Origin: a virus
Taxonomy: Duplodnaviria; Caudoviricetes
DNA length: 25,859 nt
Direction: 5' to 3' (one strand)
IMG/VR virus record: IMGVR_UViG_3300046028_008858
Location: 1 to 25,859 of that record
A program made the position numbers and the translations under genes. Numbering within the stretch: the first letter of the stretch is position 1; each line of letters begins with the position of its first letter. Of this stretch, positions 1-21,127 are shown piece after piece. The notes beneath the pieces were generated by a model, which searched no databases, was not told where the DNA came from, and saw nothing but the letters and a program-made list of their open reading frames with translations.

Positions 1-7
1 GAAACAG

Positions 8-238
8 ATGACACAATCAAATGAGATGGTAAACCATCCAAATCACTATGGAGGTGAGGATAACACATACGAAGTAATAAAAGTATGTGAGGCTTGGGAA
101 TTAGATAAAGACGCTTATCTCTTCAACGTAGTTAAGTATGTTGCAAGAGCAGGCAAGAAAGACCAAGCAAAAGAATTGGAAGACCTTAAGAAGGCGTCTT
201 TCTATTTAAACCGTAAAATTAAAAACTTAGAAAAATGA
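8..238 (+). CDS. DUF3310 (SaV-like) phage protein
   Basis: VNHPNHY...EVI...NVVKYVARAGKK...EDLKKASFYL pattern typical of DUF3310. Confidence 0.85.
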   Translation: MTQSNEMVNHPNHYGGEDNTYEVIKVCEAWELDKDAYLFNVVKYVARAGKKDQAKELEDLKKASFYLNRKIKNLEK

Positions 239-672
239 TTTATTGGTTAACAGGACAACCTGGTTCAGGTAAAACTACATTAGCGAAAGCAATCATTAAA
301 GAAAGATTCTTCCGAGATTGGTTTCACATTGATGGTGATGATATTAGAGAGTTATTTGACAATAAAGACTATTCAAAAGAAGGTAGAATGAAGAACGTAT
401 TATTGACACAACAACTAGCTCAATACCTCCACTATAAGGGTAAAGATGTGATAGTGTCTTTAGTGTCACCATATAAAGAACAGAGAGAGTTATTTAAAGA
501 AAAAATGGGTGATATGTTAAAGGAAGTTTATGTCCATACCTCTGAAGTTAGAGGTAGAGAAAACTTCTTTGTTGGAGACTACGAACAACCTACAGAAAAC
601 TATACAGACATTTGCACTGATAATATTTTGGTAGACGAATGTGTTGAAATAATCTTTAAAAAAATTATCTAA
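235..672 (+). CDS. cysC: Adenylyl-sulfate (APS) kinase
   Basis: WLTGQPGSGKTT P-loop, IDGDDIR, YSKEGR..N, VSLVSPY..R and YEQP motifs of CysC; short form with a reduced lid region; ATGA overlap with the upstream gene. Confidence 0.85.
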   Translation: MIYWLTGQPGSGKTTLAKAIIKERFFRDWFHIDGDDIRELFDNKDYSKEGRMKNVLLTQQLAQYLHYKGKDVIVSLVSPYKEQRELFKEKMGDMLKEVYVHTSEVRGRENFFVGDYEQPTENYTDICTDNILVDECVEIIFKKII

Positions 673-1073
673 TGAAAAAAATACATGTTGAGGGCGACCC
701 AAAATTAAAAAATACGGGGGGTAAACAATATTCAATGTTTGTAGGTAGATTCCAACCATTTCATGATGGACATAGATGGGTTCTTGATGAAATGTTGAAT
801 GAAGGTAAGAATGTTCTTATTTGTATCAGAGACATTGAACCTGATACAAATAACCCATTCACTGCTAAAGAAGTTGAGAATAATCTTAATGGACAACTTC
901 TTGATTTAATTATGGAAGGTAGAGTTAAAGTAATGGTAATCCCAAACATTGAATCTGTAAACTTCGGAAGAGGAGTTGGATACGATATCATAGAATATTT
1001 ACCACCACAAGAGGTGAGTGATATCTCAGCCACTAAAATAAGAGAACAATTAAAACAAGAAAGTAAATTATAA
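672..1073 (+). CDS. Small HxGH nucleotidyltransferase (cytidylyltransferase/NMNAT-like)
   Basis: GRFQPFHDGH, NPFT and ISATKIR motifs; TAATG coupling to cysC. Confidence 0.8.
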   Translation: MKKIHVEGDPKLKNTGGKQYSMFVGRFQPFHDGHRWVLDEMLNEGKNVLICIRDIEPDTNNPFTAKEVENNLNGQLLDLIMEGRVKVMVIPNIESVNFGRGVGYDIIEYLPPQEVSDISATKIREQLKQESKL

Positions 1074-1921
1074 TGTTAGAAACAAATAGAATTATTCAAG
1101 GAGACTGTGTTGTTGAGATGGGAAAACTCCCTGAGGCTACGGTTGACTTAATGGTTACATCACCACCATATAACGTGGGAATAGATTACGATAGTCATAA
1201 CGACAGAATGTTTATGGAGGATTATTGGGGATGGACCGAACAATGGCTAACACAAGCTTATCGTTTATTAAAAGATGATGGTAGAGTCGCTATAAACGTA
1301 CCTTATGAAGTAAATGTACAAGACAGAGGTGGTAGGGTTTTATTTATGGCTGAGTTTTGGAATGTTATGAAAAAAGTTGGGTTTCAATTCTACGGACTTG
1401 TTGACCTTGACGAAAACTCGCCACATAGAAGTAAGACTACGGCTTGGGGTTCATGGATGTCACCAAGTAGTCCTTATATATATAATCCTAAAGAGTGTGT
1501 TGTTTTAGCATACAAAAAAGACAGGATTAAAAAAGTTAAAGGTGAACCACAATGGAAAGGAGAGTTGGTTGACTTGGAACAAGAAGATGGTACTATAAAA
1601 CAAAAAATGATGTATCAAGACGAAGATAAAAAAGAATTTATGAGTCTTGTATATGGACAATGGGAATATTTTGCTGACACCAAACAACAAACTAAAGCAA
1701 CATTCTCAATGGATATTCCAATGAAGGCGATTAAGATACTAACCTATAGAAACGATGTGGTACTTGACCCATTTGCAGGTAGTGGGACTAGTTTGGTTGC
1801 TGCGGAAATTAGTGGTAGACGATGGATTGGGATTGAATTAAGTGAGAGCTATACTAAAGTGGCTAAAGAAAGAGTTCAACACTTTATAGATAAGAATCGA
1901 CAAATAGAATTAGGTTTATAA
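1073..1921 (+). CDS. DNA N4-cytosine/N6-adenine methyltransferase (beta class)
   Basis: TSPPYN catalytic motif N-terminal, VLDPFAGSGTS SAM-binding motif C-terminal, IGIEL. Confidence 0.93.
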   Translation: MLETNRIIQGDCVVEMGKLPEATVDLMVTSPPYNVGIDYDSHNDRMFMEDYWGWTEQWLTQAYRLLKDDGRVAINVPYEVNVQDRGGRVLFMAEFWNVMKKVGFQFYGLVDLDENSPHRSKTTAWGSWMSPSSPYIYNPKECVVLAYKKDRIKKVKGEPQWKGELVDLEQEDGTIKQKMMYQDEDKKEFMSLVYGQWEYFADTKQQTKATFSMDIPMKAIKILTYRNDVVLDPFAGSGTSLVAAEISGRRWIGIELSESYTKVAKERVQHFIDKNRQIELGL

Positions 1922-1922
1922 T

Positions 1923-1948
1923 AAAAAGGTCCTTGAGACCTTTTTTTT
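1923..1948 (+). terminator. Intrinsic terminator
   Basis: AAAAAGGTC-cttga-GACCTTTTTTTT directly after the methylase stop. Confidence 0.8.
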
Positions 1949-1980
1949 GTTTATACGAGTATTTATTAAGAAAAGTACAA

Positions 1981-2178
1981 ATGGTTCAAATCATAATCAC
2001 AGAAGAACAATTAAAATTAATTAAAGAAAACCTTAGGATTGATAAAAACTATAAGGGTCAATTTAGTGAAAGTAATATTGATTCCTCAAATACAAGTACT
2101 TCAATAGAAATAGACCCATTTGCTAAATTTTTAAGAGGATTGTTTACAGGACAATTAAACCAAATGTCTGAAGTGTAA
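1981..2178 (+). CDS. Hypothetical protein with IITEEQL..IKE leader motif
   Basis: ATG at 1981 preceded by TATTTAT (1960-1966); N-terminus MVQIIITEEQLKLIKE. Confidence 0.6.
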   Translation: MVQIIITEEQLKLIKENLRIDKNYKGQFSESNIDSSNTSTSIEIDPFAKFLRGLFTGQLNQMSEV

Positions 2179-2188
2179 AAAAATAACT

Positions 2189-2560
2189 ATGAAAGAAGAA
2201 TTAATTTTAAAACTAATACAAATACAAACTCAGTTTAAATTTATGCATTGGCAAACAATGGGCGATGCTAAACATAGAGCTTATGGTGAAATATACGACA
2301 CTTTAGGAGACCTTATTGATAGTTTTGTAGAATCAATGATGGGTAAATATGGTAGACCAGAATTTGAGTCGGAATTTTCAATAATGTTTCAAGATTTAAA
2401 ATCATTAAGTGTTCAAAACTTTATAGATGGAATTACTGAATTTTTAGTGTCAATGACTGAACAGTTAGATACTAAATATGATACTGATTTATTAAATCTA
2501 AGAGATGAAATGTTGGCTTCGGTTAACAAATTAAAATACTTACTTACGTTAAAATCATAA
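2189..2560 (+). CDS. Ferritin/Dps-like four-helix protein (DUF5856-like)
   Basis: HWQT...HRAYGEIYDTLGDLIDSFVE and C-terminal LLNLRDEM..VNKLKYLLTL resemble Dps ferroxidase helices. Confidence 0.75.
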   Translation: MKEELILKLIQIQTQFKFMHWQTMGDAKHRAYGEIYDTLGDLIDSFVESMMGKYGRPEFESEFSIMFQDLKSLSVQNFIDGITEFLVSMTEQLDTKYDTDLLNLRDEMLASVNKLKYLLTLKS

Positions 2561-2585
2561 TAATGGTAAAAAACTTAGTTAATTG

Positions 2586-3998
2586 ATGAAAAGAATAATA
2601 TCGGAAACAGGGCTTAGAAACATTAATGCTCTAAAAAAAAGGTATCAAAAAGCTGAGATTTATTTTCATCAAGATTTGGATGGTGTAACAACCGCAATTG
2701 CGATGAAAAAATACCTTGAAGATAATGGTATTAATGTCATAGGCACTCACATTATTCAATACGGTGATAAAGAATTCTCTGTTAAAAAAAATGACGCTCA
2801 AGGAGATGTAATGCCAGTTCTTGTTGATTTTGCTCACGGTAAACCGATGTTTGTAATTCATACTGACCACCACGATAAGCAAGTTGGTGTTGAAAAGGGA
2901 ACCTCAAAACAGTTTAGAGGGGCTCGTTCAAATGTCGAAACAATCTCACAAGTTGTATCTCCAACCGATTTATTTCCTTCGGCCGATATATTATTAATTA
3001 ATACTGTAGATTCTGCGGATTATGCAAAGTTTAATGTAACACCACAGGAAGTGGTTAATTATGTTTACAGGATAGATAAAGATTCTTCACTCCAAAGAAA
3101 TAAAATGTTATTAGGATTAGTAATTAACAAATTACTTTTAGCGTTTAAAAACAAACCAGGATTCTTAGAGTCTTTGGTTATGGATTCTGAACCATCTTTA
3201 ATGTCGATATTAAATAACATTAAAGATTGGATGACAAGAACAAACGCAGCAAAACCTGAAGACTTACAAAAAAATGCACAAGATTATGCGGACAAAATGA
3301 AGGGCTACCCAACTGTATCTGATAACATTATTTTTCAGTACGGTGGGGGGAGTATGTTTAAACCTGGGTCTTACGACCGATATACACCATTTAGAAATAA
3401 TCCTGAGGCAGACTTTCTCATCATGGCGTGGCCGATGGGACTTGTTCAAGCTTCTTGTAATCCATTTAAGAAAGAAAGAGAACTTAAAGGTGTTAATCTT
3501 GGGGAAATTGCTCAAGAAGTACTTGCCAAATGGGAAGACCAACTAAAGGAGAAAAAGATACCGTTATCGACTATGAAGTGGGTTAGCGAAACGAGCGCAG
3601 GACCTGAAAGTGTTGGGTTCACTTTTAAAGATTTTGACGCTCTTTACGGTGGTAAATTCATGTTCATGGACGGAGGAGAAGAGATGTTAAATAAGATTGA
3701 AGAAATGATGGAAAAACCATTCAGTGATTTGTCTGAAGAAGAAATTTCATTGATGGATAAAATTGGAATCAATGCTTGGGACCTTATTCAATCTAACTCA
3801 GGTGGGCATAAATGTATTACCAATATTTCAGGACTTAATTATTTAGGTAGAGGTAAAAGACCACCACAAGGAGGTATTAGATATGATTCTGAGAGAGATG
3901 ATTCGCCATCAGTTAAGTTTACCAAGATGATTGCAAACCAATTTCAAAAAGTATTAAAGGAAAAAATTGCGGAGTCTAAAAATTCAACAGAAGATTAA
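2586..3998 (+). CDS. DHH-family phosphoesterase (NrnA/RecJ superfamily)
   Basis: HQDLDG (DxDG), LVDF, HTDHH and C-terminal SGGH (DHHA1-like); N-terminus MKRIISE. Confidence 0.75.
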   Translation: MKRIISETGLRNINALKKRYQKAEIYFHQDLDGVTTAIAMKKYLEDNGINVIGTHIIQYGDKEFSVKKNDAQGDVMPVLVDFAHGKPMFVIHTDHHDKQVGVEKGTSKQFRGARSNVETISQVVSPTDLFPSADILLINTVDSADYAKFNVTPQEVVNYVYRIDKDSSLQRNKMLLGLVINKLLLAFKNKPGFLESLVMDSEPSLMSILNNIKDWMTRTNAAKPEDLQKNAQDYADKMKGYPTVSDNIIFQYGGGSMFKPGSYDRYTPFRNNPEADFLIMAWPMGLVQASCNPFKKERELKGVNLGEIAQEVLAKWEDQLKEKKIPLSTMKWVSETSAGPESVGFTFKDFDALYGGKFMFMDGGEEMLNKIEEMMEKPFSDLSEEEISLMDKIGINAWDLIQSNSGGHKCITNISGLNYLGRGKRPPQGGIRYDSERDDSPSVKFTKMIANQFQKVLKEKIAESKNSTED

Positions 3999-4348
3999 GA
4001 TAGGTCATAAGTAATACTATCGCCAGCTTCAATATTAAGGATTTCACAAGAACCACCCTCAATCTCTAACACAATATTACCGTTCCCACAATAAGAAGGA
4101 CAATCAAATTCGTCATTACACGGAGGACAATTGTGATGTATATTAACAATCACGTTGTTCTTTATAATAATTATGTCTAACGGTATTAGACAATTTTTCA
4201 TCCAAAAACATTGTTTATCTCCACCCATTAAAAACAACAAACCATTAAAGTCGTTGTCAAAGGTTTTACCCATCATCCCAATTGATTGAGACTCCCTATC
4301 AACTAATGTTTTAACATTAAAAGTATTGTCATTAATTTTTACCTTCAT
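3995..4348 (-). CDS. DUF192 family protein
   Basis: GMM...GLLFL...FWMKNCLIPLDIIII...VLEIEGG...I.AGD; start moved to MKVKIND, 5 nt after TATTTAT. Confidence 0.88.
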   Translation of the reverse strand: MKVKINDNTFNVKTLVDRESQSIGMMGKTFDNDFNGLLFLMGGDKQCFWMKNCLIPLDIIIIKNNVIVNIHHNCPPCNDEFDCPSYCGNGNIVLEIEGGSCEILNIEAGDSITYDLS

Positions 4349-4533
4349 AATTAATAAATACTTTAGAAAACATAATAGTATTTGAATTTTTATCGTATAT
4401 TTGTATTCACAAAACAAAAAAGGGGTGAAAACTTGACAAAAGTGTAATTTTTATTATACTTTGAAAACATTGGATATATTTATATGTTCATGTCCGAAAG
4501 GACAAACACCTCCAAAATTCACAATAAAAAAGA

Positions 4534-4565
4534 TTTGATAGAATGAGAATTTTTTCCTATCTTTG
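4534..4565 (+). promoter_or_regulatory. Bacteroidota primary-sigma promoter upstream of tRNA
   Basis: TTTG-N20-TATCTTTG matches the -33/-7 consensus TTTG...TAnnTTTG. Confidence 0.8.
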
Positions 4566-4627
4566 TGAAACAAATCCCATAAGAAAGTTTTCGAGAGAAT
4601 TCAAACCTTATGGGGTTTTTTAACTAA

Positions 4628-4638
4628 GTTCTTTAACA
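4628..4638 (+). promoter_or_regulatory. boxA-like antitermination site
   Basis: GTTCTTTAACA compared with rrn boxA TGCTCTTTAACA; 11 nt before the tRNA; second copy at 5171. Confidence 0.55.
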
Positions 4639-4649
4639 TTAAAATATAT

Positions 4650-4721
4650 CGCGAGGAGGTTGTTGGTTACCCACCGGTCTCATAAGCCAGGTCCACGGCA
4701 GTTCAATTCTGTCCCTCGCAA
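4650..4721 (+). tRNA. tRNA-Met(CAT), initiator-like, atypical D arm
   Basis: Acceptor CGCGAGG/CCTCGCA with C1:A72 mismatch; anticodon loop CTCATAA; T arm GGCAG-TTCAATT-CTGTC; CCA not encoded. Confidence 0.8.
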
Positions 4722-4724
4722 CTA

Positions 4725-4824
4725 AAATCCACCAAAATGGTGTCTGATACTGACAGCTCTTTAGGGGTGATGGGTGTGAAAGCAGACTGAAAAGGGTACA
4801 ACCCAAACCCATAGTGATGGATTT
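4725..4824 (+). ncRNA. Putative ~100 nt multibranch structured RNA of unknown family
   Basis: Closing stem AAATCCA/TGGATTT; internal stems TGTC/GACA, ATGGGT/ACCCAT, GGGT/ACCC; no credible ORF. Confidence 0.4.
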
Positions 4825-4835
4825 AAAAAAAAAGA

Positions 4836-4867
4836 TTTGACTAATTAAAATATTAGTTGTATCTTTG
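4836..4867 (+). promoter_or_regulatory. Bacteroidota primary-sigma promoter
   Basis: TTTG-N20-TATCTTTG. Confidence 0.8.
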
Positions 4868-4972
4868 TAAACCAAACGGGTAACACCGAGAGGTTTTTTA
4901 ACAATCACCGAAAACAAATCTCACTATCGGTATAAAATAGAGTAAGATTGTTAAAAAAAAACTTCACAAAAA

Positions 4973-5004
4973 TTTGATAGTATCAAAACTTTCATCTACC
5001 TTTG
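4973..5004 (+). promoter_or_regulatory. Bacteroidota primary-sigma promoter
   Basis: TTTG-N20-TACCTTTG, followed by TGAAACAAAT exactly as after the 4534 promoter. Confidence 0.8.
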
Positions 5005-5170
5005 TGAAACAAATGAGAAGGGTTGACCTGATTAATCTTCGGATAAGTTAAGGTTGTGAAATTCCAAGTTCTTATTTCAAAACTGTGTTTGTTCACAACG
5101 GTTTGAAATTAAAAGGTGAACATGATTGTCGGGGATAACAATCGTAACATCAACCCCCTTTAGTGAAAGC

Positions 5171-5180
5171 GTTCTTTGAA
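5171..5180 (+). promoter_or_regulatory. boxA-like site upstream of the large ncRNA
   Basis: GTTCTTTGAA-TTAAAATAT, nearly the same context as GTTCTTTAACA-TTAAAATAT at 4628. Confidence 0.55.
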
Positions 5181-5260
5181 TTAAAATATTTTTTCTATAA
5201 GAGAACCGTGAGTTGAACCTTCGGGGAATACGAGCAAACGTCATACTTATAGAAAGAAAT

Positions 5261-6068
5261 TGGGCGGTCTATAGTCCATGAAATAAACTGTGAAAGCAGT
5301 ATAAAGTGACTCATCTTGATTGAAGTGGGTTGCGGTTTCCGAAAGGGAGCTCGAGTAGACAAGCGGGATATTATCAAACCTTTAGTATCGAGGGTAACAC
5401 TGTAGAGAAAGTGGTTTGGTAACCAAGCGATGTGGGTCGTTTGGTTGAGGGGGGAACTCCAATAAGAATAACTCGTAGAACTGTTGTGAGACATATGGTT
5501 ATCCGACCATACTATTGCGGAGTTCAATATAAAAGTAGACTTAAAACCGAAAGGTAAGAGTTCGTACAGGTGGTGCTGTTGTTCTCCTTACTCTTGACCT
5601 ACCAAGGTAGGAGTTATGAAGTAGACTTAAAATATGGAGGTCGGGAGACTTCAAGGTGTAGTTCAGTATTGTCTCGTTCAAAAGATGGGACAGCTGGTTT
5701 GACGGACCGCTACATCTATCATCCACAAATCAAACTTTTACTTTCATGTGAAAACTAAAAATCTAAAAGGAAAAGTGTTCGTCAGTCGTGATAGACAGGT
5801 CACTACTTAGTCATGAGTTGTTCATGGCCGTAAAGGGTCCCAAGCCCGATACGATTGTTTTGAAAGTTCTCTAGTCCCGCAAGGATTAATTGGGGTGGCA
5901 ACCTCGAAGAGTGATAAGTAAGAATAGAGTATATTACGACTTAAGGATTGGTTAATCTAATTGACCGTGACTGAGAGGTACTTCTCAAAAGGAAGTGGAA
6001 ATCGGAGGAACACAAATAATCTCCTGTAAAGTCTCTCATTGAAAGGTGTATTCTCAACCTGAATGCCA
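5261..6068 (+). ncRNA. Large (~800 nt) structured ncRNA, GOLLD-like
   Basis: GC-richer than flanks, no credible ORF, many stems with G-U pairs and GNRA loops on the + strand (GGTTTCC-GAAA-GGGAGCT, AACCAAGCGAT/GTCGTTTGGTT 5421-5446, ACC-GAAA-GGT, GAGGTC-GGGA-GACTTC). Recurrent AGTAGAC, tRNA-linked, ends GTGTATTCTCAACCT before a terminator. Size and context fit GOLLD; the family call is from recall, not a covariance search. Confidence 0.65.
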
Positions 6069-6070
6069 CT

Positions 6071-6105
6071 AAACCCTAATTGTTTTTACAGTTAGGGTTT
6101 TTTTT
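6071..6105 (+). terminator. Intrinsic terminator of the ncRNA locus
   Basis: AAACCCTAATTGT-loop-ACAGTTAGGGTTT plus T tract. Confidence 0.88.
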
Positions 6106-6106
6106 A

Positions 6107-6138
6107 TTTGTATATATAATTTGAATTTACTATCTTTG
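6107..6138 (+). promoter_or_regulatory. Bacteroidota primary-sigma promoter
   Basis: TTTG-N20-TATCTTTG, 21 nt before ATG 6160. Confidence 0.8.
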
Positions 6139-6159
6139 TAATCACAAAACGATAAAGAT

Positions 6160-6441
6160 ATGAACATACCTCAGCACAACATCAAGATTCAACACGAGAC
6201 CTTCGGAGTATTGTTAAGCGAAAACTTCGTCAACTCAACTCAATTCAAATTGTTTTTGAAGATGGTTCAGGGTTGTATTGAACTCAAGAACGACTTAACG
6301 TTTTTCAACGGTACTGATTTCTTTATCCACGTACCACACAAACATTTGGTTAGTTCAATGATTACTACTAATGTTAATACATATACATTAGCTGAACACC
6401 TTATTAATAAATCTAAAATGGAGGCGTTAGAAACAAAATGA
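6160..6441 (+). CDS. Hypothetical protein
   Basis: 93 aa ORF behind a host promoter; ATGA overlap with the next gene. Confidence 0.8.
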   Translation: MNIPQHNIKIQHETFGVLLSENFVNSTQFKLFLKMVQGCIELKNDLTFFNGTDFFIHVPHKHLVSSMITTNVNTYTLAEHLINKSKMEALETK

Positions 6442-6737
6442 TAACCATTCAAAATATTATAGAATTTTCTAAAGAACACCCTTCACTTAGAAATGGTAGG
6501 GTTACACGAATTGGAAACAATAACGTAGAATTTTCTATTGTTGGAGGTACTAGCGGGTTATACGGTGATTTTATTAATAATTTTGAGGTGGCAATTTTTG
6601 ATAAAGAAAATAATGAGTTTATCACAAAATTCTTTTACCCTGATATATTAGATGATGTAATTGCTTATATGTCAAAGGAAGATTTGGAAGTCTTAATTAA
6701 TAAGGTATTGAGAAGTAATGATTTCCAAGTTAGATAA
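6438..6737 (+). CDS. Hypothetical phage protein
   Basis: SIV...GLYG....FEVAI...DDVIAY pattern recalled from small phage proteins; coupled to the upstream gene. Confidence 0.8.
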   Translation: MITIQNIIEFSKEHPSLRNGRVTRIGNNNVEFSIVGGTSGLYGDFINNFEVAIFDKENNEFITKFFYPDILDDVIAYMSKEDLEVLINKVLRSNDFQVR

Positions 6738-6775
6738 AACTTGGTGGTGGAACCTGTACAAACCAGTACGGCCCT

Positions 6776-6803
6776 AAAGGAGAGACTTCGGTCTCTCTTT
6801 TTT
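6776..6803. terminator. Bidirectional intrinsic terminator
   Basis: AAAGGAGAGAC-TTCG-GTCTCTCTTTTTT between convergent genes. Confidence 0.88.
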
Positions 6804-7284
6804 ATTGTTCCCACCATATAAAGAATCCGCAATTATCGTAAATATACTTATTACAGTCTTCTTTAAATTCCTCAAGCATATTTTCAAACTCACCCCACTC
6901 ACCCATACCAATATCTTCATATATTTCATCTATTGTTCTATAAACTTCATTACCCTCATCGTCTTGATGAAGAACATTTGAGTCACCCCAACTCCATCTG
7001 GCAATTACTGAAGTGATGTCATTCTCCAAGTCAATATGGGGATTGTGGAATATAAAGTAAACGTATTCGTCATTACTAATATTAATTCTAACACCTTTTT
7101 CACTGCTAAGTTTCTTTATTGTTTTTGACACAAAATCGTCAGATTGTTCTTCACCTATTTCACCAACTAATTCTGTTAAGAAATTATCTAAATTATAACC
7201 AATCATTTTGGCGATGGTTGCGGTATCAGGATTCGGATATCCAACCTTATTCAATACCTTTAAAAATCTATTTAACTCACTCAT
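6802..7284 (-). CDS. Hypothetical acidic protein
   Basis: 160 aa ORF, third gene of a tight minus-strand operon (1-nt gaps). Confidence 0.8.
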   Translation of the reverse strand: MSELNRFLKVLNKVGYPNPDTATIAKMIGYNLDNFLTELVGEIGEEQSDDFVSKTIKKLSSEKGVRINISNDEYVYFIFHNPHIDLENDITSVIARWSWGDSNVLHQDDEGNEVYRTIDEIYEDIGMGEWGEFENMLEEFKEDCNKYIYDNCGFFIWWEQ

Positions 7285-7285
7285 A

Positions 7286-8110
7286 CTATAACATATAAAA
7301 ATAAGGTTCGATATCGTCTGAATCGTTGAATATCCTCATCGGTTTGGTTAATTTAAGGGTTGGTTCGTCAGAATAGAAGGTACAATAAATCTCATTAATC
7401 TCCACCTCACTTCTAAATTCTTCGTGTAAATCATACGTGTAATACAATACAATATATTCGTCCCGTAGTCTATCGAAATCGTATTCAGACATTGCAGGTT
7501 TATCGGTATTCATATTAAGTTCACACGAATCTTTTATTTGTTGGTTCCAAGTGGCGATTAAGGAAAAATCATATACTAATTCATCGGAACTTACTTCTCC
7601 TTCACCATAACAATCATGGCATTCTTCTTTTCCATCTCCATCACAACTAGTACACTTAAACTCTCCATCACCATCACATTCGGGGCAAGTCGTGTAATCA
7701 CCATCACATTCTTCACAACCTTCACCATCACATTCTTCACAAGGTATTACCCCAGAACCATCACATTTCTCGCAACTGACGTGGCCTCCTCCTCTACAAT
7801 CTCTACAACTAACCTCCCCAGAACCATCACAAGATGAACATGTTGTATTAAATTCTTTACCTTCCGTTGTAAACAAGTTCGCGAAACCTAATGAATTAAT
7901 CATTTTATCTCCAAGATTAAACCCTTTACCTTGATTATACGAATAAATATATATTATTAACTTGACAATATTATCAGGACCCAAATAGTTGAAGTAGTCG
8001 CTTTGTTTTTGCATTACAGGAATTAAAAAGTCATAAACTTCTTGAGGTGTGTCTGACTTAGGTATTAATTCTGATAAATTTGCCGCTAATTTTTTTATTT
8101 TTTCATTCAT
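7286..8110 (-). CDS. DnaJ-type zinc-finger (CxxCxGxG repeat) protein without J domain
   Basis: About 8 CxxCxG(xG) repeats in the central region; no HPD motif. Confidence 0.8.
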   Translation of the reverse strand: MNEKIKKLAANLSELIPKSDTPQEVYDFLIPVMQKQSDYFNYLGPDNIVKLIIYIYSYNQGKGFNLGDKMINSLGFANLFTTEGKEFNTTCSSCDGSGEVSCRDCRGGGHVSCEKCDGSGVIPCEECDGEGCEECDGDYTTCPECDGDGEFKCTSCDGDGKEECHDCYGEGEVSSDELVYDFSLIATWNQQIKDSCELNMNTDKPAMSEYDFDRLRDEYIVLYYTYDLHEEFRSEVEINEIYCTFYSDEPTLKLTKPMRIFNDSDDIEPYFYML

Positions 8111-8111
8111 A

Positions 8112-8498
8112 TTATTCAGGTTCTGGTGATACTGTAAATATCATGGTAACTATGTGTTCACTGTCTGCAACAAATTTCATATCAATAATTAGACCTGCAT
8201 CTGCTGCGAAATTATTATCCGAGCCTGAAATTATTTTACCTTTAGGCGATAGTATGTATTTAGTGATGGAGTCACGTAATTTATTTACCATATTCTTAAT
8301 ATCCCTACAAAAAAAATCGGCGTCAATATCAATCGCACCCAAATAATCAAACTTAATGTTAATCTCATACCTTTCAATCGATTCTTTATTGTTTACATAA
8401 TCAATATGTAAATAGAACTCCATAACATTAAAATATGTTGCTAAATCAGAGGAGATGAGATATTTAAGTTTTTCCGATAAAATTTCTTCATTAATCAT
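8112..8498 (-). CDS. Hypothetical protein
   Basis: 128 aa ORF, TATTTAT 4 nt upstream; N-terminus MINEEILSEKL. Confidence 0.8.
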   Translation of the reverse strand: MINEEILSEKLKYLISSDLATYFNVMEFYLHIDYVNNKESIERYEINIKFDYLGAIDIDADFFCRDIKNMVNKLRDSITKYILSPKGKIISGSDNNFAADAGLIIDMKFVADSEHIVTMIFTVSPEPE

Positions 8499-8561
8499 AT
8501 TAATAAATACCTTTATTTTCGTATTTCGGTTAGTTATTATATATGATATAAATTTAAGAAC

Positions 8562-8879
8562 ATGACTATTAAAGTAACATTAACTGAAGAAGAAATCCTT
8601 AGTACCCCAAATGATTCTGAGTTGGGTGAGTTAGTTAGAAATAAATTTTGGCAAGCCAGGAGGGACCAAGAAGGACCTCAATACGATGATGAACACTTCG
8701 GACTCACCATAGGTGAAGACGGTCTTGTAACGTCTGTAAATCGTCCTGACGAGTACGATACTTGTGTTATGTGTGGTAAGAAAACACCGTATCTTAGAAG
8801 TACTCATATTGATTTAAGATTTAATTATATTCAAGGTATGGGTCAAATTTGCGTTGACGAATCAACCTGTGGAAAATAA
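8562..8879 (+). CDS. Hypothetical protein with C-terminal Zn-ribbon-like cysteines
   Basis: CVMCG...HID.R..YI.G.GQIC. Confidence 0.75.
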   Translation: MTIKVTLTEEEILSTPNDSELGELVRNKFWQARRDQEGPQYDDEHFGLTIGEDGLVTSVNRPDEYDTCVMCGKKTPYLRSTHIDLRFNYIQGMGQICVDESTCGK

Positions 8880-8907
8880 TTTAATTTATGTGGATATGAA
8901 AAATAAA

Positions 8908-8939
8908 TTTGGTGGGTAATGTATTATTCCTTATATTTG
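8908..8939 (+). promoter_or_regulatory. Bacteroidota primary-sigma promoter
   Basis: TTTG-N20-TATATTTG. Confidence 0.8.
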
Positions 8940-8961
8940 TTTAACCAAAAACAAGAAAGAT

Positions 8962-9417
8962 ATGACAACCAACACCAACACCCTAATCAAAGTAACAGAA
9001 GGAACATTAGCAGGAGACGTATTCTACGGTTCTTTTGACACCACAGTAAAGAACAAGAGAGTCTCTGTAATGGTTTCCAACCACATCAAAGATGTAAACA
9101 AAGAGTACGAGTTCCGTATCGCAAACAAATGTCAGGCGGGATTCATTAACATCCACGACAGTAAAGGTACAGCATCTGAGATGATGAGAGGATGGACCAA
9201 AAACTCTTTGGTTAACATCCAAGTAAAGAATGAGTTCGGTCACTGGATGAACGTATACACAACCAAAGGTGGTAAGTGGTACTCAATCGACAAAGGTTTC
9301 TTAGAAGTAATGACTGTAGGAACCATGAGACAATCGTTCTCTGACATGTGTGACATGGAATTATGGGGTCGATTCGGAGCCAAAACTTGGGCTGACAAAG
9401 CTTTCACTCAAAACTAA
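8962..9417 (+). CDS. Hypothetical (probably early) protein
   Basis: 151 aa ORF between a host promoter and a terminator. Confidence 0.85.
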   Translation: MTTNTNTLIKVTEGTLAGDVFYGSFDTTVKNKRVSVMVSNHIKDVNKEYEFRIANKCQAGFINIHDSKGTASEMMRGWTKNSLVNIQVKNEFGHWMNVYTTKGGKWYSIDKGFLEVMTVGTMRQSFSDMCDMELWGRFGAKTWADKAFTQN

Positions 9418-9425
9418 TAAAAAAT

Positions 9426-9449
9426 AAATCCCCTCATGGGGATTTTTTT
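9426..9449 (+). terminator. Intrinsic terminator
   Basis: AAATCCCC-TCAT-GGGGATTTTTTT. Confidence 0.85.
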
Positions 9450-9491
9450 AATAATATATTTAATTTGGGTTGACAATTAAAAGATAAGACA

Positions 9492-9680
9492 ATGTTTGAG
9501 AATAAGATATTTTGGAAAGACACCTTTGATGGTGAGAAAGCTCAAGGAGGTATCTTCTACAGAGCGGTAGACTTGAAGAAGTTTATGGAATTGGTGGAGG
9601 CCAATGAGAATGGAAACGGTGGCGAGATTGTTGGGATTCGTTTTGAAGATAATAATGTAGAATTTATTGTGAAGAAATAG
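9492..9680 (+). CDS. Small hypothetical protein
   Basis: 62 aa ORF with A-rich leader similar to neighbouring genes. Confidence 0.75.
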   Translation: MFENKIFWKDTFDGEKAQGGIFYRAVDLKKFMELVEANENGNGGEIVGIRFEDNNVEFIVKK

Positions 9681-9681
9681 T

Positions 9682-9712
9682 TTTGTAATATCGTAGGTAT
9701 TCACTATATTTG
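9682..9712 (+). promoter_or_regulatory. Bacteroidota primary-sigma promoter
   Basis: TTTG-N19-TATATTTG. Confidence 0.78.
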
Positions 9713-9735
9713 TATTCACAAAAACAATAAGACAT

Positions 9736-10476
9736 ATGACTCCTACAATCTCCACAATCGAAAAAGTACGTAACTATCAAGGTCAAAATTCTTTCGTCAT
9801 CAAGATGAAAGATACCATATCAAAATACGGAGGTCTAACTCCTAAACAGTTAGCCGCTGTTGAAAAATGTCTTAACGCGGTTGCAACCGTTAAAACTGAA
9901 GAAATGACTGAAGACATGAAACGCATCGTTGAGTACAAAGGTGAGAACACGTTCGTTAAGGACATCGCATCTAAGTTCCAAAAGTATGGTACCTTAACTG
10001 AGAAACAAAAGTCAGCCGCTTTGTCTCAGATTCAAAAAGAGGAAGACAAAGAGAAGACCATCCGTATGAACTGGCCGACTCCAGGTGAGACAATCGTAAT
10101 CGGTCGTAAGATTGGTCAACAGTTGAAAGAGACTTATGGATTGGAGTTCAACCCTACATTGATTGACATCACTCGTTTGTTAGGTGTTAGTCCTAAAGCG
10201 GTAAGATTCGCGGGTAAAATGACCATCAAACGTGGTAAAATCTGTACCTCTTGTATGAGAGACTTGACAGATGAGTTCTCAATGTTAACAGGAATGGGTA
10301 AGATATGTGCGGGACACTTGAAAATCCCTTACATCAAAGATGCGTCTGAGACAGCTCGTTTCCGTGAGGACTACTTGAAGAGAGTTGAGGAGATTGGGGA
10401 GATGGAGTTTTGGATTCCAAAAAACCAAATCAAAAAGTGGACAGGAATGACCGAAGCTATCATGAGAACCATGTAG
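9736..10476 (+). CDS. DUF6011-like Zn-binding protein with duplicated N-terminal helical repeat
   Basis: CTSCMRDLTDEFSMLTGMGKIC fits the CxxC.RxLTD..S...G.G..C pattern; two copies of Y.G.N.FV.......KYG.LT.KQ. Confidence 0.7.
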   Translation: MTPTISTIEKVRNYQGQNSFVIKMKDTISKYGGLTPKQLAAVEKCLNAVATVKTEEMTEDMKRIVEYKGENTFVKDIASKFQKYGTLTEKQKSAALSQIQKEEDKEKTIRMNWPTPGETIVIGRKIGQQLKETYGLEFNPTLIDITRLLGVSPKAVRFAGKMTIKRGKICTSCMRDLTDEFSMLTGMGKICAGHLKIPYIKDASETARFREDYLKRVEEIGEMEFWIPKNQIKKWTGMTEAIMRTM

Positions 10477-10479
10477 AAC

Positions 10480-10512
10480 ATAAACCTCAACGAAAGTTGG
10501 GGTTTTTTTATT
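10480..10512 (+). terminator. Intrinsic terminator, identical 33-bp copy at 12001
   Basis: AAACCTCAAC-GAAA-GTTGGGGTTTTTTT. Confidence 0.88.
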
Positions 10513-10530
10513 CTTAAGGTATTTATGAAT

Positions 10531-11517
10531 ATGGAATATATTATCTCAGAGTCGCAACTTAAAAAAATACTTGAGCAGTCTAATGCACCATCTATGGCCA
10601 TTATTACTAAGTTATTTAAAATGTTAAATAACGAAAAGAAAAAACACAAAACAAGAGCCGCTCTTATTGAGGTAATTAAAGGTTATTTACCTTATTTAAG
10701 TATTCCTGAACAATATTCATTATATCTCTTAGAATTATATCTTTTAAACTATAGAAAAGACGGTGATTATTCTAATTTAACTAAAGATAATTTTGTCGAC
10801 CCAAGAAAAATGAAAGGTAAAGGGACTTCAAACCCTAAAGCTAGTCAATACACAATAGCTCAATTACCATTTAAAGGTTCAAACTTAGAAGGGTATTGGA
10901 GTGAAGACAGAAATGGAAAACCATATTATAAGGTTGTTTCCTATGGATGGTACCCAATTTACATTTATAAGGATGATAAATGGTATGAGGCCACTGAAAA
11001 ATACTCATCTTCAACATCGAAACAAATGGGTAACGCAGACCCTGTATCATGGAATGACTATTTGGACAATGAAGTTTATACATTAACTAATGATGAAATG
11101 AGAATGTTGGAACAAGGGAAAAGTCATGAAGAAATAATGCAAGCCAAACTAAAAAAATTAAAAAACGTTGAATCTGAACTTTCGAAAAGAAAAAAAACAT
11201 CTAAGACTTGGGGTTATGGCACGCCTCAAGTGAATATTAAATTCAAAGTTAAATCCATTGATATTGAAGACGATAAGGCAATTGTTACCGTTGACATTTA
11301 TGATGTTTTAAAAAGAGAAGGTGGTATAGAAGTTCCGACAACTCAAAATTATTTAAAAGGTGAAATTCCAAACATTACTCCAAAAATTATTGAAGATAAT
11401 ATTAAGTCCAAACTTAAAGGTGAATTAAAAGACTACATTGGAACTCGTTTTAGATATACGGGTGAAGACTCTCCAAATACACAAGTAGAATTTAAATTTA
11501 ACCATCTAAAAAAATAA
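10531..11517 (+). CDS. Hypothetical protein with YIISESQL..ILE leader
   Basis: Long ORF; TATTTAT at 10520-10526 favours ATG 10531; central SYGWYPIY...WYE...YS.STSKQ domain. Confidence 0.85.
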   Translation: MEYIISESQLKKILEQSNAPSMAIITKLFKMLNNEKKKHKTRAALIEVIKGYLPYLSIPEQYSLYLLELYLLNYRKDGDYSNLTKDNFVDPRKMKGKGTSNPKASQYTIAQLPFKGSNLEGYWSEDRNGKPYYKVVSYGWYPIYIYKDDKWYEATEKYSSSTSKQMGNADPVSWNDYLDNEVYTLTNDEMRMLEQGKSHEEIMQAKLKKLKNVESELSKRKKTSKTWGYGTPQVNIKFKVKSIDIEDDKAIVTVDIYDVLKREGGIEVPTTQNYLKGEIPNITPKIIEDNIKSKLKGELKDYIGTRFRYTGEDSPNTQVEFKFNHLKK

Positions 11518-11604
11518 TGAAATACATAGGGTGGTGGAAGTTTATACCAATCAATTAAAATTTCTTAAAATCGTGATATATATGTATTAAAACACATATT
11601 TTTA

Positions 11605-11997
11605 ATGGAAAAATTTAATCCTTATCATCAACACTTATTAGTTAAATGTTGGGTCACAAATCCTCCAAAGAAAGAGGAATTATTAAATAAATGGTTTACG
11701 TATTTGGTTGAGACGGTAGGGATGAAAGTTGTTGCTGGTCCAACTAGCGTTTATGTGTCAGACCCTGGTAATGAAGGACTGACGGGAACAGTTACACTCG
11801 CAACGTCACACGCATCAATCCACATTTGGGACAACGCAGAACCACCTATGGTTCAGTTTGATATCTACAGTTGTAAGGAGTTTACTCTTGAACAGGTAAT
11901 GAAATGTTTTAACCCTTGGGGACTTATCAAAGCAGAATGGGTAATGATTGACCGAAACAGCACACCAACAATAACCTCACAAGGAAATTGGAACTAA
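11605..11997 (+). CDS. speD: S-adenosylmethionine decarboxylase proenzyme (pyruvoyl-dependent)
   Basis: HLLV...GLTG...ATSHASIHIW...DIYSCK.F; autocleavage Ser in T-S-H. Confidence 0.85.
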   Translation: MEKFNPYHQHLLVKCWVTNPPKKEELLNKWFTYLVETVGMKVVAGPTSVYVSDPGNEGLTGTVTLATSHASIHIWDNAEPPMVQFDIYSCKEFTLEQVMKCFNPWGLIKAEWVMIDRNSTPTITSQGNWN

Positions 11998-12000
11998 GTT

Positions 12001-12033
12001 ATAAACCTCAACGAAAGTTGGGGTTTTTTTATT
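12001..12033 (+). terminator. Intrinsic terminator, identical to 10480-10512
   Basis: ATAAACCTCAACGAAAGTTGGGGTTTTTTTATT. Confidence 0.88.
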
Positions 12034-12058
12034 AAACTATTTTTACTATCTTTGTAAT

Positions 12059-12400
12059 ATGGGAAGATTAACTCAACACATGTTAGAAGAAAAAATGATT
12101 GATGAAATCATACAGGAATTTAATTTCGAACGATGTTATCTTGCGATGAATACTCTTAATTGGGAATGGTTTAGTACGGGGGTTCCAACTGTTGAAATGT
12201 TAAAAGATGCCGCAATAGACAGACTCCATTCTGCGATGGAAGGAGTTAAAGATAAAGAGAATAAACTTTCTGCGAATGAGCATTACTCCGCTTCAAGTGG
12301 AGGACTTAAAGGAACTGCATGGAAGAACCGTTACGGTCATGTAACAGGGATAAAGTTAGAGTTCGTTCTTGAAGAATGGGACTCAGATGGAGATTATTAA
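12059..12400 (+). CDS. Hypothetical phage protein
   Basis: 113 aa ORF; TATCTTTG (12047-12054) 4 nt upstream. Confidence 0.8.
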   Translation: MGRLTQHMLEEKMIDEIIQEFNFERCYLAMNTLNWEWFSTGVPTVEMLKDAAIDRLHSAMEGVKDKENKLSANEHYSASSGGLKGTAWKNRYGHVTGIKLEFVLEEWDSDGDY

Positions 12401-12456
12401 ATTAAACTTTTAGACATTTACTCGTTCATTATTTCTATCCCTGATATTTATTCGTA

Positions 12457-13449
12457 ATGAAAGTATGTTTAAAAAAATTGGGTGAGTTTCCAAAGAAGAA
12501 TGAAGTTCTTGTTATTAAGAAGTTTCTTCAGTTTTTACAATCCCAATCACCATTAAATCAAGAAGTTCGTATTACGTTCACTGACTCCCGTGAGATTCCA
12601 ATGACCACAGGTGTTAGAATGCCTGATAATGAAATTGTGGTATTGGCCAAAGGAAGATTATTAATTGATATATTAAGAACCGTATCACATGAATGGGTTC
12701 ACGAATTCCAATACCAAAAAATGGGAGTTAGAGATGATGTTAAGATTCAAGATATTGGAGGTCCTGAAGAAAATATGTGTAATGTATTATCAGGGATATT
12801 CATCAAGAAGTTTGAAAAGAAATACCCTGAGTTTAGTGAAGTTACTTACGGAGAGACCGTCAATGAAGAAGTAATATCTGAAATATCTCCTGAATCAACA
12901 GGGATTAATAAATTTTTGGAATTTATGAGAAACAACCCTGAATATATCGTAAAAATGGGTTTTAGAAACCACGACAGATTAGAGGATTATGTTTATACTG
13001 GTACTTACGAAGAATTCTCCGAATTATTAAACGAATTAAATGAGTTGATTAAAAATAAAAGCGATTATATCGATGGTGAAATGGATGAAATCGAGAGAGC
13101 AGTCCAAGACTTAAGTAGAGATGGTGACCTTGAAACGACAGTTCAGGATGTTACATCCGCATTTAATAAAGCCAAAGAGATTGACTTAACTAAAGATATT
13201 TGGTCCAAACTTGAAAACACAGAATCTACTCAAGTTAAGAAGGGGGAAATGAAAAAAGTTGTTGAAATTGCAAAAAAATACAATAAGACATCACCTCACA
13301 TATTAAAGAAATCCTTAATTAAAGGAGACTACGGTCGTCCTATGATATTAAAGTTTGGTAATAGATATCATTTGGTTGCTGGTAACACAAGACTTTGTAC
13401 TGCTGCGGCGTTAGGGATGACACCTAAAGTATTACTTGCTGAGGTTTAA
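12457..13449 (+). CDS. Multidomain protein: HExxH (zincin-like) N-domain plus ParB/Srx-like C-domain
   Basis: LRTVSHEWVHEFQ...E; C-terminal PMIL....YHLVAGNTRL; acidic linker ETVNEEVISE. Confidence 0.65.
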   Translation: MKVCLKKLGEFPKKNEVLVIKKFLQFLQSQSPLNQEVRITFTDSREIPMTTGVRMPDNEIVVLAKGRLLIDILRTVSHEWVHEFQYQKMGVRDDVKIQDIGGPEENMCNVLSGIFIKKFEKKYPEFSEVTYGETVNEEVISEISPESTGINKFLEFMRNNPEYIVKMGFRNHDRLEDYVYTGTYEEFSELLNELNELIKNKSDYIDGEMDEIERAVQDLSRDGDLETTVQDVTSAFNKAKEIDLTKDIWSKLENTESTQVKKGEMKKVVEIAKKYNKTSPHILKKSLIKGDYGRPMILKFGNRYHLVAGNTRLCTAAALGMTPKVLLAEV

Positions 13450-13760
13450 CAATTACTTTTAACTCTGTGAATTGAGGTGATAACATCAAACATGTTGTAT
13501 ATACTTTCCCACGTTGAATCTACTAGTTCATCTGAATCATCTTGTGTATGAGGTTCTTTTTGGTTCACCCAAATTCTAATCATATAATCACCTGACTTCT
13601 CAAGTCGATATACTTTTGCGTCACAAATAAGGTTTGATTCAGGAACAACAACATCATCTAAGTACCTTTGAATTAATTTAACCATAGAACCATCTTCAAA
13701 TGAAGTCTCTGATTCCACAATTCTACTAAACTGTTTTTCTGTTACAATATATGATTTCAT
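13446..13760 (-). CDS. Hypothetical protein with YIVTEKQF..IVE leader
   Basis: 104 aa ORF, leader motif, TATTTAT upstream. Confidence 0.8.
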   Translation of the reverse strand: MKSYIVTEKQFSRIVESETSFEDGSMVKLIQRYLDDVVVPESNLICDAKVYRLEKSGDYMIRIWVNQKEPHTQDDSDELVDSTWESIYNMFDVITSIHRVKSNC

Positions 13761-13786
13761 TAGTAATTTTATATTTATAAATATAT

Positions 13787-14065
13787 CTAATATATTTTAA
13801 CCCTACATTCTTCATCTTCTAAAACAATTTTATTAATTGCATCATCTCTCATCATTACCCGTGATAATACGGTACCATTATCACTTAAGATGTTTACAAT
13901 CCAAAGACCTAGTCGGTGTTCAGATATTTCGATTAATTCGCCTGTATACATTCCAAGTTCCATTATACGTAATCGAACACAACTATCACAATTCTCACAT
14001 TGTTCGGGTGGAGGTACATCTTTTATTTTAAAAGTTTTACCGACTAAAGAATCGTCAATTAACAT
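13787..14065 (-). CDS. FeoA-like SH3-fold protein with CxxCxxC insert
   Basis: G..F.I..V...RLRIMELGMYTGELIEI...RDDAINKI.L resembles FeoA. Confidence 0.6.
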   Translation of the reverse strand: MLIDDSLVGKTFKIKDVPPPEQCENCDSCVRLRIMELGMYTGELIEISEHRLGLWIVNILSDNGTVLSRVMMRDDAINKIVLEDEECRVKIY

Positions 14066-21058: not shown

Positions 21059-21127
21059 AAAAAAGGTTAGGTAATTTACAAAACAGATAATTTGTTTTAT
21101 ATTTTATTTAAACAAAAAAACCAAACT

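What the first reader, a model, noticed from the sequence alone, without database searches (positions are those of the whole stretch)
5261..6068. ~800 nt highly structured RNA, probably a divergent GOLLD-family RNA in a Bacteroidota phage
Seen: dense short stems with G-U pairs and GNRA loops on the + strand only; a 14-nt internal duplication AAGTAGACTTAAAA (5533-5546 and 5619-5632) plus GAGTAGAC (5353), which are AGUA loop-E-type strands; an AT-rich linker (~5725-5775) splitting 5' and 3' domains; and a terminator 2 nt after the end. Known: GOLLD RNAs are ~800 nt, phage/tRNA-associated, two-domain, of unknown function, and have been reported to form multimeric RNA-only assemblies. My GOLLD call rests on size, context and recalled motifs (GTGACTGA, 3' GTATTCTCA). 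If it fails the model, it is a new giant ncRNA class.
Basis: partly seen in the sequence, partly recalled or inferred. Interest (0 to 1): 0.85.

Follow-up and report, generated by a model that had tools for sequence, protein, structure and literature searches.

The report
Lake jumbo-phage GOLLD cage RNA
This 800-base gene-free stretch of a large lake phage is a full-length member of the known GOLLD RNA family, predicted to self-assemble into a hollow RNA-only cage, and it lies behind the same short signal that bacteria of its likely host phylum place before their ribosomal RNA, which would let the phage make it in bulk.

Summary
The GOLLD call is right; 'divergent' and 'possibly a new class' are not. 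Rfam GOLLD matches 5654-6060 over the whole model (332 bits, cut-off 150). The 5' half, 5261-5653, is colinear by eye with the solved env-38 GOLLD. In 62 relatives its helices are 91% paired, against 37-43% when slid. Nine of ten cage-bridge motifs are kept; B4 keeps three of five pairs.

Corrections: the 14-nt 'duplication' is the two strands of near-palindromic helix P11, identical in only 2 of 62. The third copy is a strand of P2. The AT-rich linker lies inside the 3' domain.

Lake metatranscriptome contigs cover the RNA. Relatives are ~300-kb phage records.

A boxA-like GTTCTTTGA precedes the RNA in 59 of 62 relatives (control 2 of 581) and matches rRNA leaders and spacers of the likely host phylum. 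This suggests rRNA-type antitermination. This scan reported that leader before on other DNA (8 notes); I found no paper on it.

Verdict: new member of a known kind. The cage's function remains inferred.

The parts
5261..6060 (+). GOLLD RNA, full length (800 nt), env-38 type
   Evidence: Rfam RF02032 332.2 bits at 5654-6060; conserved at 76-92% in IMG/VR relatives while the non-coding flanks align only in short pieces; RNA contigs from 5259 to 6057
5261..5653 (+). 5' (cap) domain, helices P1-P12; not covered by the Rfam model
   Evidence: Colinear by eye with env-38 residues 1-420; 122 pairs, 91% paired, 84 with two-sided change in 62 sequences
5654..6060 (+). Conserved 3' (ring) domain
   Evidence: Model positions 1-416 of 416; many top covarying pairs
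5533..5546 (+). First copy of the 14-mer = 5' strand of helix P11 (5534-5542)
   Evidence: Pairs with 5619-5627; 6 of 9 pairs are 62/62, one is 60/62, the two central ones vary
5619..5632 (+). Second copy of the 14-mer = 3' strand of helix P11
   Evidence: The two 14-mers are identical in only 2 of 62 sequences
5355..5360 (+).
   Evidence: 368 of 372 cells paired; 5269-5358 occurs as four pair types
5384..5387 (+). AGUA strand of the bulged-G/loop-E motif, partner near 5407-5408
   Evidence: AGUA in 57 of 62; maps by eye to env-38 G132-U133-A134 / G156-A157
5431..5436 (+). Hairpin loop predicted to pair with the linker start 5722-5727
   Evidence: 5 of 6 pairs 62/62; G-C to A-U in 2 sequences
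5725..5775 (+). AU-rich variable linker inside the 3' domain (inside the cage in env-38)
   Evidence: 24% GC; 5718-5775 is 50-72 nt long across relatives; PMC12286853
6071..6108 (+). Intrinsic terminator
   Evidence: 13-bp stem plus T run; stem varies but stays paired in the close relatives, absent here in L041/L042
5171..5179 (+). boxA-like GTTCTTTGA
   Evidence: Within 130 nt upstream in 59 of 62, control windows 2 of 581; same motif in 13 of 16 16S leaders and 18 of 18 spacers of a phylum draw
5189..5258 (+). Hairpin between boxA and the RNA, likely removed by processing
   Evidence: 13-bp arms; fold; swapped or absent in relatives
5017..5161 (+). Predicted closed leader structure before boxA (boxB position)
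   Evidence: Fold; RNA contig 4906-5157 in run X5
4973..5004 (+). Bacteroidota-type promoter P3 (TTTG / TAnnTTTG)
   Evidence: consensus from PMC6847099
4836..4867 (+). Bacteroidota-type promoter P2
4534..4565 (+). Bacteroidota-type promoter P1, followed by a hairpin 4569-4621
4628..4636 (+). Second boxA-like site, before the tRNA
4649..4721 (+). Degenerate tRNA with CAU anticodon and C1-A72 mismatch
   Evidence: Missed at default settings; ARAGORN score 96.3 at relaxed threshold; Rfam tRNA 21.1 bits, below cut-off 29

Best explanation
This is a full-length GOLLD RNA gene of a large lake phage, whose 800-nt product is predicted to self-assemble into a hollow RNA-only cage that likely shelters or scaffolds parts of the host translation machinery during infection. 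Steps: (1) Shown: family identity, two-domain structure, promoters, boxA-like site, terminator, presence in RNA libraries. (2) Inferred, about 0.6: host RNA polymerase starts at the tandem promoters, boxA loads the host rRNA antitermination complex (NusB-S10, NusA, NusG, SuhB), and the untranslated RNA is made fast and folded like rRNA. (3) Inferred, weak: the leader is cut off near 5259-5261 and the RNA ends at about 6060 before the terminator. (4) Inferred by homology, about 0.85: monomers join through GNRA/A-minor and kissing-loop bridges into a dihedral cage of about 12-14 chains, with the AU-rich linker inside. (5) Inferred, about 0.3: the cage binds or encloses ribosomal particles or tRNA so that phage protein synthesis continues in a stressed host.
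For: Identity: 332.2 bits over model positions 1-416, no other family at cut-off. 5' domain: colinear with env-38 (by eye); 91.2% paired against 36.9-42.9% in six slid controls; 76 of the top 110 covarying column pairs are at least 85% complementary. Bridges, mapped by hand from the paper's table and counted in 62 sequences: B1 loop GAAA 62/62, receptor U-G 61/62; B3 loop GGAA 62/62, receptor pair 5541-5620 62/62; B5 G-C 62/62; B6 receptor G-U 58/62; B7 5770-5840 G-C 41, C-G 19 and 5769-5841 62/62; B8 GC, switching to CG in L041/L042; B9 GGCA in the window; B10 receptor pairs 61/61 and 61/62. Leader: boxA-like site in 59 of 62, promoter within 320 nt in 60 of 62, although the leaders around it differ widely in length and sequence. 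boxA is necessary and sufficient for the rRNA antitermination complex in E. coli (PMC10250234). RNA contigs identical to the window start at 5259 in runs X1, X3 and X4; one in X1 ends at 6057. Ribosome pull-down and tRNA cargo are cited or proposed in PMC12286853.
Against: No assembly, binding or knockout data exist for this RNA. B4 keeps only three of env-38's five Watson-Crick pairs and its loop is shorter, so the stoichiometry may differ. 34 of 62 loci show no tRNA by default ARAGORN within 1.5 kb upstream or 1 kb downstream (some loci are shorter), and the window's own tRNA is degenerate; this weakens a tRNA-cargo role. L042 lacks the boxA-like site, and L046 and L106 carry a one-base variant. 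Flavobacterium-related genomes mostly use a different boxA (exact match in 2 of 14 leaders and 1 of 12 spacers). The RNA evidence is contigs only: no strand, no true ends, no matched DNA run, and depth sums many strains. The 62 sequences are related (effective number about 20), so counts are not independent events. The ribosome pull-down is known to me only through a citation.
Confidence: 0.62

Rival explanations
1. Same RNA and cage, but it works as a decoy: an abundant rRNA-like stable RNA that soaks up host RNA-cutting defence enzymes, Nus factors or other RNA-binding proteins.
For: rRNA-like leader; found in many lake RNA libraries; a DHH-like gene is a frequent neighbour, in 33 of 61 loci; expression rises at lysis according to PMC12286853.
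Against: A decoy does not need ten conserved, covarying inter-chain bridges. No partner was identified here.
Confidence: 0.15
2. In this lineage the RNA forms a smaller or open assembly, or works with a phage protein such as the conserved 93-aa neighbour, rather than as a closed RNA-only 14-mer.
For: B4 shortened and P11a reduced to 3 bp; GOLLD stoichiometry varies from 8 to 14 with construct and sequence (PMC12990946); the 93-aa gene lies downstream in 25 of 61 loci.
Against: All ring and inter-shell bridge motifs are kept. The neighbour has its own promoter after the terminator, sits at varying distances, and has no fold match.
Confidence: 0.15
3. The boxA-like motif is only a processing or spacing signal, or a relic, and the RNA is transcribed without antitermination.
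For: Distance to the RNA varies from about 17 to 126 nt; one relative lacks it; boxA loss lowers 30S activity only 2-3-fold in E. coli.
Against: Kept in 59 of 62 otherwise divergent leaders and matches host rRNA leaders and spacers.
Confidence: 0.2
4. The RNA is a new giant ncRNA class, or ROOL, OLE, RNase P, tmRNA or an intron.
For: The 5' 393 nt match no Rfam model.
Against: The Rfam GOLLD model covers only the 3' domain, which matches at E 7e-95; the 5' part follows env-38; no other family reaches its cut-off.
Confidence: 0.01

Closest known systems
GOLLD RNA env-38 (Rfam RF02032; PDB 9MEE; D7 14-mer; PMC12286853)
   Same: About 800 nt (833 there), same order of 5' helices, same 3' domain, AU-rich linker at the same place, upstream Met-tRNA, bridge motifs B1-B3 and B5-B10.
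   Different: P5 and P11a shorter; B4 kissing loop three pairs instead of five; B7 uses G-C/G-C instead of G-C/A-U; lake phage of about 300 kb rather than a marine scaffold; the upstream tRNA is degenerate. Comparison made by eye.
Streptococcus agalactiae GOLLD (PDB 9L0R, 12-mer; seen through review PMC12990946)
   Same: Conserved 3' domain; L10-L12 kissing loop.
   Different: That RNA is 700 nt and lacks P9, P11a-c and P21b; the window keeps P11a-c and P21b.
rRNA operon leader (tandem promoters, boxB hairpin, boxA) and the rrn antitermination complex (PMC10250234, PMC8632103)
   Same: Tandem promoters, hairpin, boxA-like sequence, tRNA and a long untranslated RNA, intrinsic terminator.
   Different: Phage-encoded; drives a non-ribosomal RNA; only 10 nt lie between RNA end and terminator, leaving no room for a long leader-trailer helix; Nus binding untested.
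ROOL RNA (6- or 8-mer cage)
   Same: Large phage RNA near tRNAs that forms an RNA-only cage.
   Different: No ROOL match; unrelated sequence and fold according to PMC12286853.

Membership tests
GOLLD RNA (RF02032) | Score above the gathering cut-off over the conserved 3' domain | tested here: met
   332.2 bits vs 150, positions 1-416 of 416
GOLLD RNA (RF02032) | Length of about 700-850 nt with a separate, more variable 5' domain | tested here: met
   800 nt; relatives 782-875 nt as cut out
GOLLD RNA (RF02032) | 5' domain helices of the env-38 type | tested here: met
   Colinear by eye; 91% paired, 84 of 122 pairs with two-sided change. The paper's figure was not visible, so some helix names are my mapping.
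GOLLD RNA (RF02032) | Variable AU-rich linker within the 3' region | tested here: met
   24% GC, 50-72 nt
GOLLD RNA (RF02032) | Phage or prophage location, often near tRNA genes | tested here: met
   G000 is a virus record; degenerate tRNA-CAU at 4649-4721; tRNA-CAU near 25 of 62 loci
GOLLD nanocage (env-38) | Sequence elements of bridges B1-B3 and B5-B10 | tested here: met
   against the table (hand mapping)
GOLLD nanocage (env-38) | Bridge B4, five-pair L10-L12 kissing loop | tested here: inconclusive
   Three pairs kept (60/62, 62/62, 62/62, one with A-U to G-C in 2); outer two 0/62 and 9/59
GOLLD nanocage (env-38) | Self-assembly into a closed multimer | not testable with these tools
   Needs mass photometry or cryo-EM
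GOLLD RNA (RF02032) | Expressed as a discrete stable RNA | tested here: inconclusive
   RNA contigs cover 5259-6057, but contigs give no strand, level or true ends
ROOL, OLE, RNase P, tmRNA, introns | Rfam match at cut-off | tested here: not met
   No match among 4227 families other than GOLLD; ARAGORN finds no tmRNA
   The copies pair with each other (P11) or with 5267-5272 (P2), and AGUA is not kept in the first copy
rrn antitermination leader | boxA sequence as in host rRNA operons, after promoter and hairpin | tested here: met
   not matched by most Flavobacterium-related genomes
rrn antitermination leader | NusB-S10 binding and antitermination | not testable with these tools
   Bench test needed
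Initiator tRNA (for 4649-4721) | 1-72 mismatch and three G-C pairs in the anticodon stem (features recalled) | tested here: not met
   C1-A72 present, but only two G-C pairs, one U-G and one C-A

The most novel reading that the evidence does not exclude
Large phages of Bacteroidota transcribe GOLLD through the host's rRNA antitermination and RNA-chaperone complex, as a counterfeit ribosomal RNA, and the resulting cage acts on host ribosomes. The leader would be a genetic handle for GOLLD's function. In one sub-lineage the spacer even displays a look-alike of the host 16S 3' end.
Probability: 0.3. Interest if true: 0.7.

Novelty: new member of a known kind. Interest (0 to 1): 0.3.

Why it matters
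GOLLD's function is an open question, but this copy does not change the family. It adds a covarying 5'-domain alignment for the env-38 subtype, which Rfam lacks. It adds independent support for inter-chain bridges B4, B7 and B8, and a natural variant with a shortened B4 for testing what sets cage size. The rRNA-style boxA leader, if functional, explains how an untranslated 800-nt RNA is made in bulk and gives a one-base test in cultivable Bacteroidota.

Tried and rejected
Tandem duplication or loop E for the 14-mer: rejected. New RNA class or another family: rejected. Small ORFs over the RNA: the 110-aa frame 5195-5527 on the - strand has no Pfam match; the two shorter frames were not searched. 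Sigma-70 promoter scan: 8 sites against 6.4 expected, uninformative. Major capsid search PF07068 rang nowhere, controls included, so it says nothing. No capsid or terminase family among the 41 and 39 ORFs scanned. Protein-coding bins of 1-14000 had little or no contig cover in four RNA runs; absence of cover is not evidence, and the runs were picked by this region. The 93-aa neighbour: no Pfam or PHROG family at E 0.001, no Atlas hit, model pLDDT 78 with no PDB match at E 0.001. The 471-aa neighbour: no PDB sequence match, only a sub-threshold DHH hit. Flavobacterium as host: one 7.4-kb MAG contig carries a relative, but its boxA type differs, so not accepted. The first 16S-leader script found few starts because of a too strict motif (redone). 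PMC7549688 was not held. Literature searches without relevant hits. Rows dropped: of 104 full-length RNAs, 62 were kept at under 97% identity; loci cut by contig ends, L045 and L100 (no 5'-domain hit) and L124-L130 (short flanks) were left out; 9 of 62 have no letters at the last hairpin because of trimming.

Full report
Observation. The 14-mer lies at 5533-5546 and 5619-5632 and GAGTAGAC at 5353; such a repeat arose in 7 of 5000 shuffles. The + strand of 5261-6060 folds at z = -2.87 and the - strand at +0.15. The linker 5725-5775 is 24% GC, and a terminator hairpin starts at 6071.

Identity. Rfam GOLLD matches 5654-6060 over all 416 model positions with 332.2 bits (cut-off 150); nothing else in the window reaches a cut-off. 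The model covers only the 3' domain. I compared the 5' part by eye with the env-38 sequence and contact tables in the supplement of PMC12286853. The two run in parallel from the first helix to the last, with shorter P5 and P11a here. The paper's figures were not visible, so helix names beyond those in the text are my mapping.

Relatives and covariation. A window motif found 40 IMG/VR loci, a degenerate 3'-domain motif found 87 more and one MAG contig titled Flavobacterium sp., and two phage records of 635 and 642 kb matched the 5' domain at about 70%. From these, 104 full-length RNAs were cut out and reduced to 62 at under 97% identity, the other 61 being 61-92% identical to the window. Of the top 110 covarying column pairs, 76 are at least 85% complementary, in both domains. 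For 122 pairs in 22 helices of the 5' domain, 91.2% of cells are paired and 84 pairs show a two-sided change. Six slid controls give 36.9-42.9% and 35-52 pairs. The helices were drawn with these sequences in view and the sequences are related (effective number about 20), so this is support, not a probability.

The repeats. The two 14-mers are the two strands of helix P11, a near-palindrome with two central A-G mismatches. Six of its nine pairs hold in 62 of 62 and one in 60 of 62, while the 14-mers are identical in only 2 of 62. In env-38 both ends of P11 are A-minor receptors, which likely explains why the strands look alike (inference). GAGTAGAC holds the 3' strand of P2 (368 of 372 cells paired). 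The AGUA strands that map to env-38's bulged-G motifs are 5384-5387 and 5917-5920. The linker lies inside the 3' domain and is spanned by helix 5701-5707/5777-5783.

Cage contacts. Mapping the ten env-38 bridges by hand, nine keep their sequence elements. B7 covaries (G-C 41, C-G 19), and the B8 dinucleotide switches from GC to CG in the two huge phages. B4 keeps three pairs, with A-U to G-C in two sequences, but loses the outer two. A further six-pair match joins loop 5431-5436 to the linker start 5722-5727; env-38 shows a complementary pair of different sequence at the same places by eye. I could not see whether it is drawn in the published structure. A cage is therefore likely, its size open; known GOLLD assemblies range from 8 to 14 chains (PMC12990946).

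Expression. Twenty RNA runs hold part of 4400-6200, 18 of them at a share of 0.2 or more, all lake or freshwater. I laid six of them. Contigs cover 5259-6057 in X1, and contigs identical to the window start at 5259 in X1, X3 and X4. X5 has a contig over 4906-5157. These are assembled contigs: they show presence in RNA libraries, not strand, level or true ends.

Context. G000 is a virus record. Relatives' CheckV values imply about 300 kb (112 kb at 37%, 229 kb at 76%). Two of four records searched hold a terminase, and one of these also holds the window's 471-aa neighbour at 62% identity. Three of those records are classed as provirus, so the lifestyle is open. Three promoters of the form TTTG-N-TAnnTTTG precede the RNA and one follows it; this is the Bacteroidetes consensus (PMC6847099). 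A degenerate tRNA-CAU lies at 4649-4721. The 32 IMG/VR loci of the close group that I scanned each gave a tRNA-CAU, but over all 62 only 25 do and 34 show no tRNA nearby.

Leader. A boxA-like GTTCTTT[GA] lies within 130 nt upstream in 59 of 62 loci, against 2 of 581 downstream control windows. The same motif is in 13 of 16 16S leaders and 18 of 18 spacers from an even draw of the MAG's phylum. It is in only 2 of 14 leaders and 1 of 12 spacers of the MAG's near relatives, 10 of which use GTTCATTGA in the spacer. So the host is likely Bacteroidota but probably not Flavobacterium. In E. coli boxA recruits the rRNA antitermination complex, which may also chaperone folding (PMC10250234; PMC8632103). 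GOLLD with boxA returned 0 papers, the Kretsch main text has no 'boxA', and searches gave nothing relevant; subscription papers were not searched. This scan noted the same leader in at least 8 other genomes; I had seen it before that look-up and tested it here.

Mechanism. Most likely the host polymerase makes the RNA through an rRNA-type antitermination complex (0.6), the leader is trimmed, monomers assemble into a cage (0.85), and the cage shelters or scaffolds translation components (0.3). The last step rests on the rRNA-like set-up, the Met-tRNA link and a pull-down cited in PMC12286853; the patchy tRNA link speaks against tRNA cargo. Rivals are a decoy role, a smaller or protein-bound assembly, and a leader without antitermination.

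Papers seen. PMC12286853: main text to the start of Methods, sections 19 and 23, supplement 1 part 2 plus a term search, supplement 3 parts 1 and 5. PMC12990946, PMC10250234, PMC8632103, PMC6847099, PMC6582537: passages. Weinberg 2009, Chen 2014, Wang 2025 and Morgado 2020: not seen, known through citations. The unseen alignments (supplement 4) and figures could already show the 5431/5722 pairing.

Verdict. A real, conserved, ordinary GOLLD: new member of a known kind, interest 0.3.

Noticed in passing
L047, L049, L066, L069, L072-L074, L085, L090, L096, L103, L111, L120, 37-72 nt before the RNA: 13 of 62 relatives carry AACACCTCCC followed by a pyrimidine run in the spacer between boxA and GOLLD, resembling the 16S 3' end of the sampled host-phylum genomes. 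The window lacks it there and has only AACACCTCC at 4505-4513.
   Followed up: partly
window 5431-5436 with 5722-5727: Predicted pseudoknot joining the 5' domain to the start of the linker; 5 of 6 pairs 62/62, compensatory change in L041/L042. Not checked against the published model.
   Followed up: partly
spacer between boxA and GOLLD in L001, L019, L021, L022, L033, L038 and others: 13 spacers match GATGA...CTGA, in several as a hairpin resembling a C/D kink-turn (motif recalled); the window has a different hairpin at 5189-5258, and four relatives have none.
   Followed up: partly
window 4649-4721; L031: The window's tRNA-CAU is degenerate, while L031, 96% identical over 2549-5672, has a canonical one of another type: the tRNA module appears to be swapped or decaying.
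   Followed up: partly
window 4725-4824 and 4894-4958: Two further closed hairpin modules between the promoters, with no Rfam match at cut-off; RNA contigs touch both in X3 and X5.
   Followed up: no
window 2583-3998 (+): 471-aa protein with DHH-type motifs and a sub-threshold Pfam DHH hit (E 0.0011); lies upstream of GOLLD in 33 of 61 loci, a lower bound set by flank length.
   Followed up: partly
window 6160-6441 (+): Conserved 93-aa protein of no known family, 737 relatives, downstream of GOLLD in 25 of 61 loci; no fold match.
   Followed up: partly
window 3995-4417 (-): DUF192 gene divergent from the RNA cluster, present near GOLLD in 25 of 61 loci.
   Followed up: no
L096 and L097 (one 14.5-kb contig): Two GOLLD matches in opposite orientation on one contig with the same leader layout; may be an assembly artefact.
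   Followed up: no
L054, L055, L065, L079-L081, L108: In these relatives the tRNA-Met lies directly after GOLLD rather than before it.
   Followed up: no
L041 and L042: tRNA-like elements that ARAGORN cannot assign flank GOLLD in both huge phages; L041 has a P11c extension of about 40 nt.
   Followed up: no
window 19017-21841 (+): Cluster of metabolic genes: beta-keto acid cleavage enzyme, hexapeptide transferase, DegT aminotransferase and a PHROG ferredoxin-type protein.
   Followed up: no
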